From the NCBI GenBank assembly GCA_000182565.2, contig KQ257450.1: a DNA stretch of 64,000 nucleotides; one strand, given 5' to 3'. The stretch comes from Spizellomyces punctatus DAOM BR117. Taxonomy: Eukaryota. Within the stretch, counting starts at the first letter, position 1; every line of letters starts with the position of its first letter. Shown piece by piece: positions 48,236 to 56,278 of this stretch. The position numbers and the translations under genes are program-made. The notes under the pieces are model-generated. The model had not been told where the DNA came from, ran no database searches, and was given only the letters and a program-made list of their open reading frames with translations.

Positions 48236-49335
48236 TTACGCCTTGAAGCCGTGTGCTTCCTTAGGGTAAGTCGGCCCGCTGCGCTGAATGACAACATTCG
48301 CCACGTAATGACCAGCAGCTACGCAAGTGTCAAGTGGCTTGCCCTGGACGAACTGGGACATGAATCCACCGACAAACGCGTCACCAGCACCATTGGTATC
48401 CACGATAGCCTCGGGTTGAATCTTGATGATGGGGTACTCTTTTACGGTTCCTTCGCTGACCAGAATGGTTTGCTCGGCTCCTTGGGTGAAGACGACTGTA
48501 CGGGAACGGGATGAGTTGACTTTGGGGAGGGCAGCAATCTTGAGGGCAATTTCCTTCACGTCTTTAGTTCCCCAGTTGTGAGCTTCGGCGTATGCCTCCG
48601 CTTCGGATTCATTGCCTAATATGATTCGTCGAGTTAGTTATTTGCACAGTCAATGCCAAAGTGTCCTTCTGCTGCGACTTTACCAAAAAGTATGTCAACG
48701 TAAGGAAGGAGCTCGTCCAATGGCTTAGTGAAGAATTGGGAAATGAAGGGAGCGGACAGGTTCATGGTGAACACCTTGTTGTTCTTGGCGGCATGCTCAC
48801 CAATGAGAAGAGCTGCCGGAGGAGACACAGTCAAGAAGAAACCTCCAGTGTAAAAGAACTTTGCATTCTCGACCAGACTCCAAATCTCTGGCTTTTGGAG
48901 GTGTTCAACCTTGTAGTTGTTGGCTGCCAACAAGTCAGTGCACAAGCTACGGTGGGTACCGGTGATCAGCACTGCGCAGAGACCAGTGGGGGTGTCGGGG
49001 TCCTCGAGATACTCGGTTCTCAATCCATCCTTGGCGGCAGCGTCACGGAGGATCTTGGCATTGGCATCACGGCCAACACATCCAATATATACCGTTTGCT
49101 TGGGGGGAAGCAACCATTGTGCACCACGCAACGCGTTCTGAGCCGCACCACCAGCAACGTATTCGACCTGGTAGGTGTCTACGAGTTCCTTGTAAAGAGG
49201 TTTGTGCTCGTCTGCGGCCAAGATGGCGTCGTTGGCCTTGAGGTTGTACTTTGTCAACAGCGACGGGTCGACGCGGGCCGAAATGTCGAGCAAGGGGTTT
49301 TCAATACCCAGGAAAACGTACTCTGAGGACGACAT
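48236..49335 (-). CDS. ADO1: Adenosine kinase (PfkB family)
   Basis: ENPLLDISA, AGGAAQN, PTGLCAVLIT, RSLCTDLLAAN, GFFLTVSP, NLSAPFI, ILFG|NESEA, DTNGAGDAFVGGF. Confidence 0.97.
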
Positions 49336-49656
49336 GTCGAGTGGATGCGGTGCCGGTTGCGGGATGGGATGACGACGACGAAAAGCCAAATGCAACGGAA
49401 GACCCAGCTGAAGGCCAGTCTTTGGGGCAAAACGGAGCGGATGGGAACGTGACATCACGTGCGTCATTTACTTGTTGCTATGCCAACACCGCAGAAAAAC
49501 GCTGTTGGGAAATGCGCAACTTGCCTGCAAGTGTCATTGTAAAGAAATAGAAAACGGAACTTGTGAACGGTCTTTCCGCCCATCTCCTTACTGGCCAGTT
49601 TTCCATTTCTTCCGGAATACCGTTTACTGTTTTTAATAGATCTTCTCTAAACTATA

Positions 49657-50964
49657 ATGTCGAGCGGAAAGTCAGTTCAAGAGTCTGGCGACGAATCTGG
49701 CCCAGAAACCCTCTCTGCTCCAAACCTCGGCAATGACCCTGTTGAGGAACTTGAAGAAACCGGAGATGTCTACCGTGCCACATTCACCCCAGCTGCTGCT
49801 GCAGCCATTGACGAACGACAAGCCCGTCTTCAGTGCCGCATGTACGAACAAAAGTTTCCCGAAGTGGACCAACTCGTCATGGTTAATGTACGACAAATCG
49901 CTGAAATGGGAGCTTATGTACATCTTCTCGAATACAACAACATTGAGGGAATGATCTTGTTGAGCGAGTTGTCTAGGAGACGTATTCGGTCTATTCAGAA
50001 GCTTATTCGGGTGGGGAGGAACGAGGTGGTGGTGGTGCTCAGGGTGGACAAGGAGAAGGGATATATCGACTTGTCCAAGCGTCGTGTGTCGGCTGAAGAT
50101 GTCGCCAAGTGTGAGGAAAAGTTTAACAAATCCAAGGCGGTACATAGTATTATGCGGCACGTTGCGGAAAAGTTGAACTGGAGTTTGGAGGAGCTCTACG
50201 AGAAGTTTGGGTGGCCACTCTATAGAAAGTATGGCCACGCATACGAGGCTTTCAAGTTGGCAATCGCGTAAGTTCAAGGCTTGTTGGGTGTTGAGGTCGA
50301 ATGGATGTTTATGGCATGCTTGCTTTCAGTGAACCAGAAACGGTCTTTGAGGGGTTGGAAATGCCAGAAGATGTAAAGAAGGAGCTTCATAGCAACATTC
50401 GGCGACGATTGACACCACAACCAGTCAAGATCCGAGCTGGTAAGCATTGCGGAATTCATTTCCTTTGTTAAAACAATGTCGTTGAACAAGTCTCCCTGTC
50501 GCAGATATTGAAGTTACATGCTTTGGATACGAGGGAATAGATGCTATCAAAACCGCCTTGCAAGCCGGTGAGGCATGTTCCACAGAAGATGTACCAATCA
50601 AGGTGCGTTGTTTTGCTCTGTCTCGGTGTTGTGTCGCTGAAGCCATGCTCACCAATGCGATTTTCTGGTGTAGGTCAAACTGGTCGCGCCACCAATGTAC
50701 GTTGTGATGACAAACTCACTTGAGAAGAGCGGGGGTATCGAAATCATGGAAAAAGCCATTGCCACGATCGAAGAAACGATAAAAAAGCAGTCTGGGCATC
50801 TGACAGTGAAGATGAAACCGAGAGTCGTTAGTGCGACGGATGATCTTGAGCTTGCACAGCTTATGGCACGAGTGGAGCGGGAAAATGCAGAGGTTTCTGG
50901 TGATGAGGAGGAGAGTGATGCTGAGGGAGCAGTGCCTGCTCCGGAAGAGGCAGATGATGAATAG
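49657..50964 (+). CDS. SUI2: Translation initiation factor eIF2 alpha
   Basis: [35 protein letters not shown] (Ser51 site), [34 protein letters not shown]; three introns. Confidence 0.98.
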
Positions 50965-51193: not shown

Positions 51194-52009
51194 TCACGCC
51201 TTTTCCACCTTGCCCACCAATTCCGTGACACCCACAGGCTCAGATGCCTTTTCATCGTACTCTGCCCATTCTTCTCCTTCACCCAATGGGATATCTGTAA
51301 AAGGTGTCTCTGACTCGGCGCCCTCAGCTTGCCACCCGTCCTAATAGAAAATGTTCATGCATTGTCAAAACACACCAGTGTCATCAACGAAAAGCTATGC
51401 AACCTACCGCCGGTGCCCATTCAAACGGCTCCAACCCCCGACACTCGATCTGCACCAACGGCGCAAACCGCCCACTTGATTCCAACGTGTAGGGTTCAAG
51501 TGTATCTACCAACACATCTGTACCAATCTTGGTCAACAACATCCCACAAGCGTACGGCTCAAAACCAACAAGAAAAATACACACTTGCAGTCCCTTCATT
51601 TTTACACGACTTGCATCTCATAACAAGGTTGGCGACACCTCTTGTATTTGATTGTTCAACCTCTTCCTATTCGAGTGTGAGTTTTATGTTGAGTGTGTGG
51701 GGATGAGAGGAGACGTACCGACGCGTTGACGGTGACCCATCCGGCATGTTCTTCTTGGCATTTCGTGCAACGAAACTAGTTGGGGGCAGTGAGGATCGTG
51801 TTTGTGTAGTAAAGGGAATAAACAGTGGGGGGAGAGGGGGATTTACCTTGAATTTCCAGTCGTACTCGTTGATATCTTGGGGACGGAGATGGGTGACGTT
51901 TTCTAGGTCGGCTTTTATGAAAATCTTGAATTTCTAGTAATGACACATTGTTATGAATAAAACGGATGCTACCAACTGCGAAGAACTCATACAAAACGCT
52001 TACCGGCAT
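51194..52009 (-). CDS. CZIB: CXXC zinc-binding protein (C1orf123/DUF866 family)
   Basis: Six-exon splice: MP|KFKIFIKADLENVTHLRP...FK|FRCTKCQEEH...|...RGVANLVMRCKSCK...|...QIECRGLEPFEW|...EWAEYDEKASEPVGVTE. Confidence 0.92.
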
Positions 52010-52345
52010 GATAAAAAACAAAATGTGAGATGTTAAAAGATAATCTCGGAAACAAGAAAGTCGCTTCCAAAAGCCCAAACGATGAGAGTCACGTGTTGTG
52101 GGGGAGATTCCTTCCTTTCGTTGAGGACAGACCCTCAAGAGAAGAACGAGCTTTTTACATCTTTTATAAAAATAGCAACGACGAAGCGATCCGCGACACT
52201 ACCGCGACACACTCTACATCGTCATTCCGACGTATGCGATACATGGGTATGCTGATAAATGTCTGGGATAATAAAAAGGCACCTCTTTTCGTCCCCATCC
52301 CACCGTCCGACTGCCACATCACATGAACGAGATTACTTGACGAGC

Positions 52346-54289
52346 ATGAAAGTGACGACAATGCAGTTTGTGGAAGTGTTACCGTGTGTCTGTGTTGGGA
52401 TGGGGTTTGTCGCTGTTGAAAAGGCCGCAAGGTTTTTTTTGGCGGAGGATAAGGTTAATGAGATTTTCGGGCCTTTTATGCCACTGTTGGAGGAAGTGAG
52501 CGCTGTTGTTCAAGAGGAGGCAGAGCAAGAGGGAGATGGGCAGCAAGTGGATACACCTGTTGTTGTTGAACCGGTGTCGAGTCCTGTGGAGACGTGGATA
52601 CAGCGGGTCAAGAATGCAGCGATCGGTGTACGGACAGAGTTGCAACAGACCGCGACGGGGATCGTCCATTTCTTTGTGTGGAGACCTTATTTATTTGTCA
52701 GGAACAAGTACTTTGAGAGTATTACCTGGGCCCGGCTGATCAAGGATCGGCATAGACTTCGTGCAGGTGAGACAACAAGTCAGATCCGTTGGGCCTCCCA
52801 AAAAACATTATCGTTTAAACATTTTTTTCTTTATAGAAAATACCCGACTTCGCCGCACCATTCGCCAACTCAACCTCCGTCTCAACCTCTCTAGACGCCG
52901 CCAAAGAGCCGCACACGAAGCCTGGACTCTCCTCCGCGACGACCTCAAAAACGAGCACAGAACCCGCGTCCTCGCAGCCCAATGTCACGCTGACTATGTC
53001 CAAGTCATTACACGCGAATACGCAGCCGAACTCGACCGAATGGAAACGGATAATGTCAACCTCCAACAAGAGATTGCTCGATTGAGGGGACAGTCTACCC
53101 CCGAGTTTCTCGATTTGTATGTGCAAGTGGATACGGTCGTTCAAAACCGGGTGTACGAAAACATTGAGGCTGAATTGGATGCGGTGGTTGAGAAGCGGGC
53201 GGCGTTGGCGGAGATGGATGAAGTTATTCACTTGAAATTGGAGGAAGCGTTACAGGAAACTAGTATGAGCGAAGAGGATGACGATGATGGACACACAGAG
53301 TCATTAGAAGAACTCGCGGGTAGGTTTTAAATGGTTTCGCGTGCATTTGCGAGAATACGCTATTTACACCCTGCTTGTAGATTTTAAAACAACGGCTACT
53401 AGCCGGCTTACTCAACTTTTAGTCTCAGACGCAACCGCCTCAGCCATGGTCCTCCAACTCGAAGATGCCGCCATGAAATGCACGCGCGATGTATCCTCCC
53501 GTGAATCCCTCTCACTCATTATCGGCATCGTGCTGGCTCACATGGAGGAGTTGGGGTTGTATGAGGATTGGAGTCGAGTGGATGCGGTATGTTATGACCA
53601 GTGACTGATCTGTTGATTGCCGTACTGACGGGTGTGTATGGTAGGCTTTTGGCAAGTACCAAAAGCTGCTGTGCTACTATATTGACAGTGATGCCGATCA
53701 AGTGGCATTTCTCGAGGGCGTCGAGGTAAGACGTTTTTTTTTTCTTTGTGTATACATTACCGACTTTTTTTGACATACTTTCAACTAGACCTTTTGCACC
53801 CCACCCCCCAAACCCGCCCTATTCCCCCGCCTCCTCCGCGTCATTTACAAATACGAATTAGTGGAACCCACCGCCGTTGTAGAATGGTACCGCCTCCCCA
53901 GTTCGTCACCAACCCACAACATGATACGGGCGTCTTGTGCCCAGTTTGTCGAGTGGCTACAAACCAAGGAGCGGGAAGAGGATGAGGAGGAGGATGAGGC
54001 TGTTGAGGCGGATCCGGCTCTGTCGGTGGAGAGGTTGTGTCAAGGGGATGAAGAAGTCGGAGTCATATTGGCGGACTGTATGGAGGAAGATGGGGAGGAT
54101 GAGGAGGAAGAGGTATACCCAGAGATTGAGTTTAGATTTGAGGATGAGGAGCGGGAGGGTGCGGGGGTCAAGAGTCCGAGGCGGGGGTCACTGGTGAGAC
54201 GTGTCCCAGGGGAAGCTGTCACCACGGTCAAGAAACGGGTGTGCTTTAGTAATGAGGTACACACCCTGTTGATTGATGATCCCATGTAG
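52346..54289 (+). CDS. Coiled-coil protein with eIF2B-epsilon-like HEAT/W2 domain and C-terminal RVxF motif
   Basis: Four introns. ...LFPRLLRVIYKYELVEPTAVVEWY...CAQFVEWLQTKEREEDEEEDE (W2 aromatic/acidic boxes), ends KKRVCFSNEVHTLLIDDPM. Start codon tentative. Confidence 0.8.
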
Positions 54290-54435
54290 GGGATGAGGGG
54301 GAGACAGTGTTTCTTTTGTGTATATATTTTTTTGTTCAAGTAAATCTCTATAGAGTTATTATTCACAAACTTGTTGGCATTGTGTCTTTGCATGGGTACC
54401 AGTGTCCACAGCAGATCCATAAAAGAGGCAACCTC

Positions 54436-55934
54436 TCATATACCCAATCCCCACGACAACAACCCCGCCAGACATCCCAGAACCATGACGATCACTGTTC
54501 TCATTCCAGCATCAACAAGCACATAAGCCACACCGGCTACCACAGCATAAAACGGAAAATCCCCCAAAGGTCTCACGACAGCTCCTCTCACGACCCCCTT
54601 TTGCCACAACAGGTACGCAGCCGCATAAACGAGTCCCACCGCCGCGGCATTCATACCCGGCAACACATGCACAAGGACCTTACTCTTTCGTACCCGAGCC
54701 CAAAGCGGCATTGCAGCAGCATTGAGCGCCAACCCAGGAGTAAAAATGCCAATATACCCCAACAATGCTCCACCAATTCCCGCGGCGGTACCATAGGGCG
54801 CAAGAGCCAACGCACCACAATAAGCCGCAAAATTAAAGTTTGGACCAGGAAGGGCCTGGATGAGGGCTACACCCAACAAAAAATCGCGTTCGGATAGCCA
54901 GCCTGGTACGACCACGTAGGAATACAATAGGGGAATAACGACAGGGCCTCCACCGAATATAACGCAGCCTGCTACAAAGAATTGGGTGAGGACGGCCAGG
55001 GGGCGGATGGATGCCACGTGGGGTTTGAGGACCATGCAAACGATTAGGAGGATGAGCCAGACGATCATGATCGCTACACCGGTTTTCCAGGATATAGGAT
55101 TATGTGCTGGATATTCCTCTCGTACTTCCACCTCGACATGTGCCGCTTCGAGCGGTGTAGGTTCTTGTGTACGATCCCGTTTTGCCCGTCTCGCGTCCCA
55201 TCTTGCATGGCATTTGACAAGTACAAATGTCAGGATCCCTCCAACGGCAATCACAACAGGTTCCAACCACGATGCCGACCACAGGACAGCCGCACACGCC
55301 GCCAGCGTACATACAGCCAATGTATCCTTATTGACGACAATTTTGCGTGCGAGGGATGTGCCGGCTTGAGCGACGAGACCTACCACTGCAGCGCTGATAC
55401 CGTTTTGGAGGTGGATTAGCCAGTCGGGGAGTGGGGAGGGGAGGTGAGAGACGCCGAGACCGAGTGCGGTCATGATGATCAACCCTGGTATACTAATAAA
55501 CTATAAACAAAAACGACTCTGACAAACCAAATAAAAAAAACGCACCTCCAACAAACAAATCCAACAAGCCCAGCCCATATCCCACCCCGATGAATCGCAA
55601 TCGAAAACAACATTTCCGTACTCCCGGGTCCAGGTAACGCCTGACTCACTGCAAAATACTCTCCAAAAAGCGTATCGTCCAACCATTTCTTGCGTACGAC
55701 AAATGTGTTGTGGAGGAGGGCAATGTGGGCTGGGGGACCGCCGAATGCAATGACCGAGAGAGGAAGGAAGGAGCGGGCGGATTCATATAGACGGTTTGAA
55801 GGGCGGGGTGTTGGGGGATCTTGCTCGGTGGTTGTGTAGAGCTTTTCGGAACTGGATTGGGCGGACACGTCTATGGTGCTTTCGGTGGGGTGGACAATGA
55901 CGGTGGGTTCCTCGGCGTGCCTGTGTGCGTGCAT
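54436..55934 (-). CDS. Chromate transporter (CHR/ChrA family, bidomain)
   Basis: AFGGPPAHIALL, QALPGPGSTEM, IFGGGPVVIPLL, FLLGVALIQALPGPNFNFAAY, GMNAAAVGLV; one intron about 55488-55546. Confidence 0.93.
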
Positions 55935-56278
55935 GACGGGCGATCCTTGTCTGGCGAGGAGTGCATCCCCATCCCGTTCGCTTTTTTTAAACCTTAAAAT
56001 CTTGATAACATAAGTGGGAGATGCACGTGCTAAAATCGCGCCATTTGACAGGCCGTGGCTTAGCTTGGTGATCGTTTCGCGTTTTCGCGACGACGACGAA
56101 CGAACGAACGAACGACAAAGGATAACCAAGTCGAGATGGATCTTTTTCCAATACGAGAAATATCGTTCATATACATATTAAAGCTAATAGCTGAAAAACT
56201 CCAAAATAATATACATAGATGTAGTATCATCATACAAGCAAAAGGAAATACAAATGAGGAATATAATCAAATCATCCA

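What the first reader, a model, noticed from the sequence alone, without database searches (positions are those of the whole stretch)
52346..54289. Candidate GADD34/CReP analogue: degenerate eIF2B-epsilon domain fused to a PP1-docking RVxF motif
Seen: after an acidic stretch the spliced protein reads DFKTTATSRLTQLLVSDATASAMVLQLEDAAMKC, then a W2 end (VVEWY...FVEWLQ plus an acidic run), then a tail ending KKRVCFSNEVHTLLI (54230-54247 = KKRVCF). From memory, yeast Gcd6 reads DFEKEGIATVERAMENNHDLDTALLELNTLRMSM. This aligns without gaps and puts Gln (CAA, 53455-53457) at the catalytic Glu569 position. The nucleotidyltransferase-like and beta-helix domains of real eIF2B-epsilon are absent, replaced by a hydrophobic N-terminus and a coiled coil. 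Established: W2 acidic boxes bind eIF2-beta, and basic-V-x-F followed by hydrophobic residues docks PP1, as in PPP1R15A/B. Inference: a catalytically dead eIF2-binding module that recruits PP1/Glc7 to dephosphorylate eIF2-alpha. eIF2-alpha lies 1.4 kb upstream with one gene between, which may be chance.
Basis: partly seen in the sequence, partly recalled or inferred. Interest (0 to 1): 0.8.

Follow-up and report, generated by a model that had tools for sequence, protein, structure and literature searches.

The report
eIF2B-epsilon-like protein with PP1 dock
A chytrid fungus gene joins a copy of the eIF2-binding end of translation factor eIF2B-epsilon, without its catalytic glutamate, to a tail motif that docks protein phosphatase 1; an undescribed family in early-diverging fungi shares this design, which could switch off the eIF2-alpha stress signal.

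Summary
Positions 52346-54289 (+) hold a five-exon, 563-aa gene, and a 562-aa Spizellomyces ortholog matches the splice model. Residues about 300-465 are a W2 HEAT domain (Pfam PF02020, 58 bits against a cutoff of 30). Its best sequence and fold matches are the eIF2B-epsilon catalytic fragment. Gln sits where 14 of 14 canonical eIF2B-epsilon proteins have the catalytic Glu. A disordered acidic tail ends in KKRVCF..LLI.

New here: this is one member of an unnamed family in Chytridiomycota and Mucoromycota. The family forms its own clade (95/93) beside canonical eIF2B-epsilon, which is present in the same species. Of 31 members, 13 carry exactly one consensus RVxF in the tail. Another 12 carry K[ST]V[RT]I two residues from the end. 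A PP1 co-fold puts V and F in the RVxF groove (0.86; best control 0.01), though this is a textbook kind of pair.

The Glu-to-Gln change is not family-wide: the column reads D 10, E 6, Q 2, N 1. Binding to eIF2 and dephosphorylation of eIF2-alpha were not tested.

Best reading (about 0.5): a PP1-targeting subunit for eIF2, functionally like PPP1R15 but not homologous to it. No paper describing it was found.

The parts
52346..54289 (+). Whole CDS. Five exons: 52346-52766, 52837-53319, 53381-53586, 53645-53725, 53789-54289 (stop included). 563 aa.
   Evidence: All introns are GT-AG and the frame stays open. The 562-aa ortholog P0001 matches along its whole length.
52361..52417 (+). N-terminal hydrophobic stretch MQFVEVLPCVCVGMGFVAV (aa 6-24). 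Possible membrane anchor.
   Evidence: It has the highest 19-residue Kyte-Doolittle mean in the protein (1.88). Like stretches sit near the N-end of 9 other chytrid members. Mucorales members have none. AF2 pLDDT is under 50 here. Topology was not tested.
52652..53093 (+). Long helix / coiled-coil region (aa 103-226; intron 1 lies inside).
   Evidence: AF2 helix 103-226 with pLDDT 70-96. A sequence block here is conserved across the family: L[KR]xD[LV]..ER..R....C.. then ME.[DE].[DE]FK.
53313..53992 (+). eIF2B-epsilon-catalytic-like W2 HEAT domain (aa about 300-465; introns 2-4 lie inside).
   Evidence: Pfam W2: 58.3 bits for P0001 and 46.6 bits for window exon 5, cutoff 30. PDB phmmer: S. pombe eIF2B-epsilon at E 2e-7 over the whole domain. 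AF2 pLDDT 89-97. Foldseek: 1paq, TM 0.79. VIA: 3jui Z 18.8 and 1paq Z 18.5.
53455..53457 (+). CAA = Gln at the position of the catalytic Glu of eIF2B-epsilon.
   Evidence: Canonical proteins have E in 14 of 14. The family has D 10, E 6, Q 2, N 1 among 19.
53885..53887 (+). First hallmark Trp of the W2 domain (VVEWY).
   Evidence: Present in at least 90% of 27 aligned members. Coordinates.
53954..53956 (+). Second hallmark Trp (FVEWLQ), followed by an acidic run (AA-box 2 type).
   Evidence: Invariant in 27 of 27 aligned members. Coordinates. The role of the AA boxes in binding the eIF2-beta K-boxes is from PMC9177959 (passages).
53969..54163 (+). Acidic, disordered linker between the W2 domain and the PP1 motifs.
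   Evidence: AF2 pLDDT is 41-54 for blocks from residue 471 on. Every family tail begins with an acidic run.
54185..54196 (+). GSLV within RRGSLVRR. Possible second PP1 contact of the SILK type.
   Evidence: Exon-5 residues 133-136 touch PP1 residues 52-56, 115-118 and 165-168 in the co-fold. The likeness to the SILK motif is recalled. The stretch is not conserved in other members.
54230..54247 (+). KKRVCF: RVxF-type PP1 docking motif.
   Evidence: Fits [RK]x(0,1)[VI]{P}[FW]. It is the only such match in the tail. V and F contact PP1 residues 167-168, 241-242, 260 and 287-292 with the lowest expected errors. The motif is conserved in family tails.
54266..54274 (+). LLI: hydrophobic pair after RVxF (phi-phi type extension).
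   Evidence: Exon-5 residues 156-164 contact PP1 residues 292-295 in the co-fold. A like V/hydrophobic run follows RVxF in P0003, P0004, P0009 and P0047, but not in members that end 2 residues after the motif.
54290..54369 (+). 3' UTR up to a poly(A) site at about 54369.
   Evidence: Raw RNA reads of run X8: plus-strand depth rises to 35 at 54198-54271, and 11 reads carry untemplated A-runs after 54369.

Best explanation
The gene encodes a non-catalytic subunit that targets protein phosphatase 1 (PP1) to initiation factor eIF2.

Shown by computation:
- It is a paralog of the C-terminal catalytic/W2 HEAT domain of eIF2B-epsilon.
- It keeps the two hallmark Trp residues and the acidic AA-box.
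- It lacks the sugar-nucleotidyltransferase and beta-helix body of eIF2B-epsilon.
- It has Gln in place of the catalytic Glu.
- It carries a disordered acidic tail that ends in an RVxF plus hydrophobic PP1-docking motif.
- A conserved coiled coil precedes the domain, and a hydrophobic stretch precedes that.

Inferred mechanism:
- The W2 domain holds eIF2 through the eIF2-beta lysine boxes, and perhaps through eIF2-gamma, without exchanging nucleotide.
- The tail of about 85 residues swings bound PP1 to phospho-Ser51 of eIF2-alpha.
- The coiled coil pairs two copies.
- The N-terminal stretch may tie the complex to a membrane.

By this reading it does the job of PPP1R15A/B (GADD34/CReP), or of the RVxF-bearing N-end of S. 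cerevisiae eIF2-gamma, with unrelated parts.
For: Domain identity:
- Pfam W2 scores 58.3 bits for P0001 and 46.6 bits for the window's own exon 5, against a cutoff of 30.
- The best PDB sequence hits are eIF2B-epsilon (S. pombe E 2e-7, human E 2e-4), aligned over the whole catalytic fragment.
- The AF2 domain has pLDDT 89-97.
- Foldseek ranks 1paq first (TM 0.79, rmsd 2.8).
- VIA gives 3jui Z 18.8 (rmsd 3.2, 155 aligned) and 1paq Z 18.5 (rmsd 2.3, 155 aligned).
- W453 is invariant in 27 of 27 members and W430 is present in at least 90%. W2 AA boxes bind the eIF2-beta K-boxes (PMC9177959, passages).

Not the GEF itself:
- The canonical eIF2B-epsilon P0106 exists in Spizellomyces punctatus. It is 23% identical to P0001 over 183 aa, and ALELN aligns with VLQLE.
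- The catalytic column is E in 14 of 14 canonical proteins. In the family it varies: D 10, E 6, Q 2, N 1.
- Yeast E569D is lethal and reduces GEF activity to background (PMC3877758, passages).

PP1 leg:
- Each tail holds at most one RVxF-type match. 13 of 31 W2-only proteins match the published consensus. 12 of 31 have K[ST]V[RT]I two residues from the end. 6 of 31 have neither, and two of those are marked partial.
- The background is 7 consensus matches in 11,659 upstream residues.
- In the last 30 aa the counts are 10 of 31 against 21 of 827 background windows (P 3e-9). Canonical proteins score 2 of 18, and both matches are the W2 domain's own K.V.W.
- The motif lies in a disordered stretch.
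- Co-fold of yeast Glc7 with the window's last 62 residues: score 0.86, best of 3 controls 0.01. That mark was reached by 51 of 78 solved complexes and 2 of 108 mismatched pairs. The runs agree in at least 70% of contacts, and the partner's pLDDT is at least 52. V and F sit in the groove formed by PP1 residues 167-168, 241-242, 260 and 287-292.

A family, not a one-off:
- In the careful tree the family clade has support 95/93. It splits into a Mucoromycota part (99/97) and a chytrid part (95/89), and stands apart from eIF2B-epsilon (92/88).

Expression:
- Polyadenylated plus-strand reads cover the RVxF-coding end.

Context:
- S. cerevisiae, S. pombe and Aspergillus have no PPP1R15. The eIF2-gamma RVxF is limited to Saccharomyces and close kin (PMC10743859, passages). 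Fungi therefore need some other recruiter.
Against: - Binding to eIF2 was not tested here in any way.
- A W2 fold does not by itself mean eIF2: the eIF4G W2 domain binds MNK (PMC9177959).
- By fold alone the domain ties with the DAP5 W2 domain (Z 18.1 against 18.8).
- The substrate of the docked PP1 is pure inference.
- The co-fold pass concerns a kind of complex that has been solved many times, so it may reflect memory. It also used yeast PP1, a disordered peptide and no alignment.
- Six of 19 aligned members, the Mucorales-type branch, keep Glu at the catalytic column. Some exchange or displacement activity in the family is therefore not excluded.
- The 12 K[ST]V[RT]I tails, the same Mucorales-type branch, have Ile where the consensus needs Phe/Trp. 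Six of 31 members show no motif.
- Unlike PPP1R15, nothing follows the RVxF region: the protein ends 16 residues after the Phe.
- If the N-terminal stretch were a cleaved signal peptide, the protein would not be cytosolic. This was not tested.
- No member was found in Dikarya or animals at phmmer E <= 1e-3. 10 of the 31 members were never looked up for a name.
- The eIF2-alpha neighbour is a single case.
Confidence: 0.5

Rival explanations
1. The protein is an eIF2-binding regulator in its own right. It could be a 5MP/BZW-like competitor of eIF5 and eIF2B, a GDP-dissociation inhibitor or displacement factor, or a weak stand-alone exchange factor. On this reading the RV[S/T/C]F tail lets PP1 control the regulator itself, as a substrate or an inhibitor of PP1, and does not aim PP1 at eIF2-alpha.
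For: - The same W2 / epsilon-cat evidence applies.
- Glu is kept at the catalytic column in 6 of 19 members.
- In most members the x of RVxF is Ser or Thr, a phosphorylatable residue preceded by basic residues.
- W2 domains of eIF5 and eIF2B-epsilon have stand-alone GDI and GDF roles (PMC9177959).
Against: - The catalytic column is free to vary (D, E, Q, N), which speaks against selection for exchange. Yeast E569D has background activity.
- A docking motif held at the very end of a long flexible tail is the usual build of a targeting subunit.
- In this gene x is Cys, which cannot be phosphorylated.
Confidence: 0.2
2. The protein is a PP1-targeting subunit for a different client of the W2 domain. 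Candidates are another lysine-rich protein, eIF2-beta, eIF5 or eIF2B-epsilon phosphosites, or a membrane-bound partner of the conserved coiled coil. eIF2-alpha would not be the substrate.
For: - The PP1 leg is as in the best explanation.
- W2 domains bind varied basic tails, including MNK (PMC9177959).
- The coiled-coil block is conserved beyond heptad pattern, which suggests a partner.
- Chytrid members have an N-terminal hydrophobic anchor.
Against: - The domain is closest in sequence to eIF2B-epsilon-cat, whose known partners are eIF2-beta and eIF2-gamma (title of Mohammad-Qureshi 2007, seen only in a reference list).
- Ser51 of eIF2-alpha is the established PP1 site on eIF2 (PMC10743859).
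Confidence: 0.15
3. The C-terminal motif is not a PP1 dock. It could be a basophilic-kinase site, a sorting signal or some other short motif. The protein would then be a W2 paralog of unknown partner.
For: - 12 of 31 tails end in K[ST]V[RT]I-x-x, outside the RVxF consensus, always 2 residues from the C-end. Three chytrid members with true RVxF also end 2 residues after it. This hints at a role for the free C-terminus.
- The co-fold pass may come from memory of solved RVxF complexes.
Against: - 13 of 31 tails fit the strict published consensus exactly once, against 0.06 matches per 100 residues elsewhere.
- In this gene the motif has basic residues before it and acidic and hydrophobic residues after it. 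It is not at the C-end: 16 residues follow the Phe.
- The controls of the co-fold scored 0.00-0.01.
Confidence: 0.08

Closest known systems
eIF2B-epsilon (Gcd6 / EIF2B5), C-terminal catalytic W2 HEAT domain
   Same: - Best sequence and fold match over the whole fragment of about 165 residues.
- Both hallmark Trp residues and the acidic AA-box 2 are kept.
- With eIF5/5MP as outgroup it is sister to the eIF2B-epsilon clade, though that node is weak at 82/40.
   Different: - No NTP-transferase or LbH domain.
- The catalytic Glu is replaced. ELNTL[KR] becomes [DEQN]L[DE]D.. and the upstream ERA becomes Q..[LV]S.
- The domain is not at the C-end: a 98-residue tail with RVxF follows.
- A coiled coil and a hydrophobic N-end precede it.
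- A true eIF2B-epsilon exists in the same genus.
PPP1R15A/B (GADD34, CReP) and viral relatives
   Same: - The proposed job is the same: an RVxF plus phi-phi dock for PP1 joined to an eIF2-recruiting part.
- Both have an N-terminal membrane-association element and an acidic, disordered middle (PMC10743859).
- PPP1R15B is reported to recruit trimeric eIF2 through eIF2-gamma (titles and abstract starts of PMC7615683 and PMC10998612).
   Different: - No sequence relation: no PPP1R15-type Pfam hit at E <= 1.
- eIF2 would be held by a folded W2 domain, not by disordered motifs.
- No region after RVxF for eIF2-alpha or G-actin contacts.
- Found in early-diverging fungi, not in animals.
S. cerevisiae eIF2-gamma N-terminal extension (KKVAF)
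   Same: An RVxF motif physically tied to eIF2 recruits Glc7 to eIF2-alpha-P without any PPP1R15 (PMC10743859 and PMC8262944, passages).
   Different: - There the motif is part of eIF2 itself and is limited to Saccharomyces and close kin.
- Here it sits on a separate W2 protein in chytrids and Mucoromycota.
5MP / BZW1-2 (eIF5-mimic proteins)
   Same: A non-catalytic W2-domain protein that would bind eIF2 and modulate its cycle (PMC3201852, abstract start; PMC9177959).
   Different: - No HEAT_5MP1_2 domain.
- 5MP proteins form a separate clade.
- 5MP proteins end with the W2 acidic box and carry no RVxF tail. Their only pattern match is the W2 Trp motif itself.

Membership tests
W2 domain (Pfam PF02020) | Profile match above the curated cutoff | tested here: met
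   58.3 bits for P0001 and 46.6 bits for window exon 5, cutoff 30.
W2 domain (Pfam PF02020) | Two conserved Trp residues and an acidic/aromatic box | tested here: met
   VVEWY and FVEWLQ+EREEDEEEDE. W453 is invariant and W430 is in at least 90% of 27 members.
W2 domain (Pfam PF02020) | All-helical HEAT-repeat fold | tested here: met
   AF2 gives ten helices over residues 303-463 with pLDDT 89-97. VIA Z is 18.8 / 18.5 to 3jui / 1paq.
eIF2B-epsilon orthologs (Gcd6/EIF2B5) | N-terminal NTP-transferase-like and left-handed beta-helix (LbH_EIF2B) domains | tested here: not met
   P0001 has no such Pfam hit at E <= 1. All 10 canonical hits have one or both domains.
eIF2B-epsilon orthologs (Gcd6/EIF2B5) | Catalytic Glu in E[LI]N motif (yeast E569) | tested here: not met
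   Gln here, encoded by CAA at 53455-53457. Canonical proteins have E in 14 of 14.
eIF2B-epsilon orthologs (Gcd6/EIF2B5) | Single essential copy per genome | tested here: not met
   A separate canonical protein, P0106, exists in Spizellomyces punctatus, and likewise in 10 other species that hold family members.
PPP1R15 (GADD34/CReP) | Sequence homology to the conserved C-terminal PP1-binding core | tested here: not met
   The Pfam scan of P0001 at E <= 1 lists only W2 and two weak coiled-coil hits.
PPP1R15 (GADD34/CReP) | RVxF followed by phi-phi | tested here: met
   KKRVCF then LLI. Both contact PP1 in the co-fold.
PPP1R15 (GADD34/CReP) | Functional region C-terminal to RVxF (RARA, eIF2-alpha / G-actin contacts) | tested here: not met
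   The protein ends 16 residues after the Phe. The features are as described in PMC10743859.
PPP1R15 (GADD34/CReP) | Promotes eIF2-alpha-P dephosphorylation | not testable with these tools
   Needs a biochemical or genetic assay.
RVxF-type PP1-interacting proteins | Match to [RK]-x(0,1)-[VI]-{P}-[FW] in a disordered region | tested here: met
   KRVCF is the only match in the tail. pLDDT is under 50 there.
RVxF-type PP1-interacting proteins | Motif conserved in orthologs | tested here: met
   13 of 31 have the strict motif, 12 of 31 the positional variant K[ST]V[RT]I, and 6 of 31 none.
RVxF-type PP1-interacting proteins | Docking in the RVxF groove of PP1 | tested here: inconclusive
   The co-fold scored 0.86 against a best control of 0.01. 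That mark was reached by 51 of 78 solved and 2 of 108 mismatched pairs. The runs agree in at least 70% of contacts and the partner's pLDDT is at least 52. Like complexes are solved, so the pass shows likeness, not binding.
5MP / BZW | HEAT_5MP1_2 domain before the W2 domain | tested here: not met
   Absent in P0001. Present in all 4 5MP hits.

The most novel reading that the evidence does not exclude
Early fungi had their own eIF2-alpha-P holophosphatase adaptor. It was a dimeric eIF2B-epsilon catalytic-domain paralog that had lost exchange activity and was membrane-anchored in chytrids. It grips eIF2 by beta/gamma and delivers PP1 through a C-terminal RVxF. This would be a third, independent solution beside PPP1R15 in animals and the eIF2-gamma RVxF in Saccharomyces. 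It would be ancestral to Chytridiomycota and Mucoromycota and lost on the way to Dikarya. The upstream ORFs before its start codon might even make it stress-induced, like GADD34.
Probability: 0.4. Interest if true: 0.85.

Novelty: new variant of a known kind. Interest (0 to 1): 0.7.

Why it matters
Dephosphorylation of eIF2-alpha ends the integrated stress response. Outside animals (PPP1R15) and Saccharomyces (an RVxF on eIF2-gamma), how PP1 is brought to eIF2 is unknown. The review read here states that S. pombe and Aspergillus have neither device (PMC10743859).

This family offers a concrete, testable candidate in chytrids and Mucoromycota. These lineages include animal, plant and human pathogens.

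It would also show a new use of the eIF2B-epsilon catalytic domain: a substrate-capture module without catalysis. The W2 proteins listed in the review read here are eIF4G, DAP5, eIF5, eIF2B-epsilon and BZW only (PMC9177959). My five literature searches found no paper on a W2 protein with a PP1 motif.

In the databases seen, members are labelled 'hypothetical' or 'W2 domain-containing'. One is labelled, wrongly, 'eIF-2B subunit epsilon'.

Tried and rejected
- Own genome: not held. A canonical eIF2B-epsilon was therefore sought in named proteomes instead.
- Profile search with the 27-member alignment: swamped by low-complexity words. It returned 8 hits, only 3 of them family members, and did not even recover its own rows. 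It says nothing about the family's range.
- Protein Atlas: one unnamed cluster at 0.85, below the level of a lead worth quoting. No structure search was possible.
- Sequencing-run index: no RNA holder listed.
- Laid reads: the RNA run is 3'-biased, so no splice joints were seen. The introns rest on GT-AG, the open frame and the ortholog only. The weak plus-strand depth over exons 1-4 is not informative.
- Fold alone does not separate eIF2B-epsilon-cat from the DAP5 W2 domain (Z 18.8 against 18.1). The assignment to the epsilon-cat type rests on sequence and the tree.
- The loose pattern [RK][RKST]V[RTSCH][FWI] (21 of 31 against 0 of 18) was written after seeing the data. I rely on the published consensus counts instead.
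- Mohammad-Qureshi 2007 (PMC1951959) is not held. Only its title was seen, in a reference list.
- One literature query failed on a term that was too short and was re-asked.
- Considered and rejected: a truncated or mis-modelled eIF2B-epsilon gene. A separate full-length one exists in the genus, the family forms its own clade, and the N-terminal half is a conserved coiled coil.
- Considered and rejected: the motif arose by chance (P 3e-9).
- Supplementary files of papers were not opened. None bears on a claim made here.
Full report
1. What is in the window

Positions 52346-54289 on the plus strand hold a five-exon gene. The exons are 52346-52766, 52837-53319, 53381-53586, 53645-53725 and 53789-54289. 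All four introns are GT-AG and the CDS is 1692 nt, or 563 aa. A search with the last exon found a 562-aa annotated protein of Spizellomyces sp. 'palustris' (P0001). It is 92% identical over that exon and collinear with my splice model from the first residue. The window therefore comes from a Spizellomyces-type chytrid.

Every string and coordinate in the finding is correct. KKRVCF lies at 54230-54247 and the Gln codon CAA at 53455-53457.

Raw reads of an RNA run with the same species label are 3'-biased. They cover the last 250 nt of the CDS on the plus strand, with depth up to 35. Eleven reads carry untemplated A-runs after 54369, which places a poly(A) site about 80 nt past the stop. No splice joint was covered.

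2. The domain

Pfam finds a W2 domain and nothing else above noise: 58.3 bits in P0001 and 46.6 bits in the window's own exon 5, against a cutoff of 30.

Against PDB sequences the best hits are eIF2B-epsilon: S. pombe at E 2e-7 and human at E 2e-4. They align over the whole catalytic fragment, not only the last 80 residues. eIF5 hits are weaker.

An AlphaFold2 model built on a 27-member family alignment has these features:
- pLDDT 89-97 over residues 300-465
- a long helix at 103-226
- disordered ends at 1-78 and from about 466 on

Foldseek ranks the yeast catalytic fragment 1paq first (TM 0.79, rmsd 2.8 over 164 columns). VIA-align gives 3jui Z 18.8 and 1paq Z 18.5. DAP5 is tied at 18.1 and eIF5-CTD scores about 15. 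Fold alone therefore says 'W2 HEAT'. Sequence says 'eIF2B-epsilon type'.

3. The catalytic position

HMMER and MAFFT both put the window's Gln in the column of the catalytic Glu. In 14 of 14 canonical eIF2B-epsilon proteins, including the one from Spizellomyces punctatus, that column is Glu within E[LI]N. Among 19 aligned family members it is Asp 10, Glu 6, Gln 2 and Asn 1. The six Glu are the Mucorales-type branch, not all of it named. The two Gln are this gene and one Mortierella.

Yeast gcd6-E569D is lethal and has background exchange activity (PMC3877758, passages). The chytrid members, this one included, are therefore probably not exchange factors. It is not a family signature.

4. A family

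An exhaustive phmmer run of P0001 over 1.84 billion representatives gave 70 proteins at E <= 1e-3. I scanned 49 of them with Pfam (P0001, 48). I left out 21 hits. Most of these were short and ended in a W2 box, and one was a 1609-aa protein.

Of the 49 scanned:
- 31 have W2 as their only domain (three of them under the cutoff)
- 10 are eIF2B-epsilon
- 4 are eIF5
- 4 are 5MP

Names were looked up for 21 of the 31, and 18 carry one. They belong to Chytridiomycota (Spizellomyces, two Synchytrium, Phlyctochytrium, Borealophlyctis, Quaeritorhiza, Dinochytrium, Batrachochytrium, Polyrhizophydium, Entophlyctis, Chytridium, Clydaea, Rhizophlyctis, Zopfochytrium) and Mucoromycota (Hesseltinella, Syncephalastrum, Fennellomyces, Mortierella). 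All are labelled hypothetical or 'W2 domain-containing'. One Batrachochytrium record is labelled eIF-2B epsilon.

True eIF2B-epsilon, with its NTP-transferase and LbH domains, is present in Spizellomyces punctatus. It is also present in ten other species that have a family member. P0001 is 23% identical to it over 183 residues.

In a careful ML tree of 38 domains the family is one clade (95/93). It splits into a Mucoromycota part (99/97) and a chytrid part (95/89). eIF2B-epsilon, fungal and ichthyosporean, is another clade (92/88). For the quick tree I had dropped five gappy rows. For one search I chose 19 family rows, 14 canonical rows and 5 outgroup rows.

The shape of the tree implies that the paralog predates the chytrid-Mucoromycota split.

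5. The tail

Every family member continues past the W2 domain with an acidic run and a variable, disordered stretch. Counting the published consensus [RK]x(0,1)[VI]{P}[FW] in the tails gives this:
- 13 of 31 have exactly one match (KRVCF, KKVTF, KRVSF, KQVTF, KRVTF, KSVTF, RRISF, RKVHF).
- 12 of 31, the Mucorales-type branch, have K[ST]V[RT]I exactly two residues from the C-end. Three chytrid RVxF motifs occupy the same position.
- 6 of 31 have neither. Two of those are marked partial, and one is a near-copy of a member that has the motif.

Upstream of the W2 domain the same proteins hold 7 matches in 11,659 residues. In the last 30 residues the counts are 10 of 31 against 21 of 827 background windows (P 3e-9). 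Canonical proteins score 2 of 18, and both matches are the W2 domain's own K.V.W. Two further Mortierella-type proteins also carry RRISF.

6. PP1 co-fold

I co-folded yeast Glc7 with the window's last 62 residues. The score was 0.86 in three runs, and the best of 3 controls scored 0.01. That mark was reached by 51 of 78 solved complexes and 2 of 108 mismatched pairs. The runs agree in at least 70% of contacts, and the partner's pLDDT is at least 52.

The contacts in the model:
- Val and Phe of KRVCF touch PP1 residues 167-168, 241-242, 260 and 287-292 with the lowest errors.
- EVHTLLIDD runs on along residues 292-295.
- GSLV, 13 residues before KKRVCF, touches residues 52-56, 115-118 and 165-168.

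From memory, these are the RVxF groove, the phi-phi strand and the SILK pocket. RVxF-PP1 complexes have been solved many times, so the pass shows likeness to them. It does not show that this protein binds.

7. The rest of the protein

The helix region contains a block that is conserved across chytrids and Mucoromycota well beyond a heptad pattern. It is therefore a functional part, most simply a dimerising coiled coil or a partner site.

Ten chytrid members, this one included, have a hydrophobic 19-mer near the N-end (Kyte-Doolittle mean of about 1.55-2.3). In several it is followed by basic residues, which fits an N-terminal anchor with the bulk of the protein in the cytosol. Mucorales members lack it.

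8. Reading

Shown by computation:
- a W2 domain of the eIF2B-epsilon-cat type without the catalytic Glu
- a conserved, disordered, C-terminal PP1-type docking motif
- a paralog family that exists beside the real eIF2B-epsilon
- expression of the 3' end

Inferred:
- The domain binds eIF2. W2 AA boxes bind the eIF2-beta K-boxes (PMC9177959). The epsilon-cat domain contacts eIF2-beta and eIF2-gamma, by a title seen only in a reference list.
- The docked PP1 acts on eIF2-alpha-P.

The logic matches the two known solutions. PPP1R15 joins an RVxF to eIF2-recruiting segments, and yeast eIF2-gamma carries its own RVxF (PMC10743859; PMC8262944). I put the full mechanism at about 0.5. The narrower claim, a PP1-docking W2 protein of a new family, I put much higher.

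Rivals:
- a 5MP-like eIF2 regulator that PP1 controls (0.2)
- PP1 aimed at another W2 client (0.15)
- a motif that is not a PP1 dock (0.08)

9. Known or new

The protein fails the tests for eIF2B-epsilon, PPP1R15 and 5MP membership (see Membership tests). It passes those for the W2 superfamily, and the sequence-level tests for RVxF-type PP1 interactors.

Five full-text searches found no description of a W2 protein with a PP1 motif or of an eIF2-alpha phosphatase subunit in chytrids or Mucorales. The HEAT-domain review lists only eIF4G, DAP5, eIF5, eIF2B-epsilon and BZW as W2 proteins.

I class it as a new variant of a known kind: a PP1 targeting subunit built on an unexpected scaffold.

The link to the eIF2-alpha gene 1.4 kb upstream remains a single, untested coincidence.

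Noticed in passing
window 52234-52345: There are upstream ATGs just before the start codon. A 30-codon uORF (52234-52326) has a stop that overlaps the ATG of a 5-codon uORF (52323-52340, MNEIT), which ends 5 nt before the main ATG. An in-frame ATG at 52259 would add 29 residues. If these lie in the 5' UTR, the gene could be translationally controlled by eIF2-alpha-P, as GADD34 is. The transcription start is unknown.
   Followed up: partly
window 49651-50964 (+): This is the eIF2-alpha gene (Pfam S1 + EIF_2_alpha), 1.4 kb upstream on the same strand. Its first open frame runs about 55 residues upstream of the usual [13 protein letters not shown] start, so the true start codon is unclear.
   Followed up: partly
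window 54290-54400: The transcript ends converge and overlap. Plus-strand reads are polyadenylated after 54369. Minus-strand reads carry T-runs before 54310, presumably the 3' end of the chromate-transporter gene at 54439-56177 (-). The two 3' UTRs would overlap by about 60 nt.
   Followed up: partly
P0008, P0010, P0012, P0013, P0015, P0024, P0030, P0031, P0039, P0043, P0059, P0065 (Mucorales-type members): All 12 tails end in K[ST]V[RT]I-x-x-COOH, with Ile where RVxF needs Phe/Trp. Nearly all of them also carry the Cys motif YC.CQ[FL], and further C.C pairs follow, often with Y.PP. Whether this variant still docks PP1, and what the Cys motifs do, is unexplained.
   Followed up: partly
P0001 residues about 140-230 = window 52765-53105: The coiled-coil region holds a block conserved from chytrids to Mucorales: L[KR]xD[LV]..ER.[AS]R....C.. 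then ME.[DE].[DE]FK. No Pfam family matches it.
   Followed up: partly
P0017 cluster (Batrachochytrium dendrobatidis): One NCBI record names this 829-aa W2-only family member 'Translation initiation factor eIF-2B subunit epsilon'. The real eIF2B-epsilon of that species is a different 689-aa protein, P0184. This is a likely misannotation.
   Followed up: yes
window 54185-54196: GSLV within RRGSLVRR resembles a SILK-type second PP1 contact and an RRxS kinase site. It touches PP1 in the co-fold but is not conserved outside Spizellomyces.
   Followed up: partly
window 48637-49467 (-) and 51670-51933 (-): The neighbours are a pfkB-family kinase (129 bits) and a weak match to a CXXC zinc-binding protein (20 bits, under the cutoff). 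The latter is the single gene between the eIF2-alpha gene and the gene studied.
   Followed up: no
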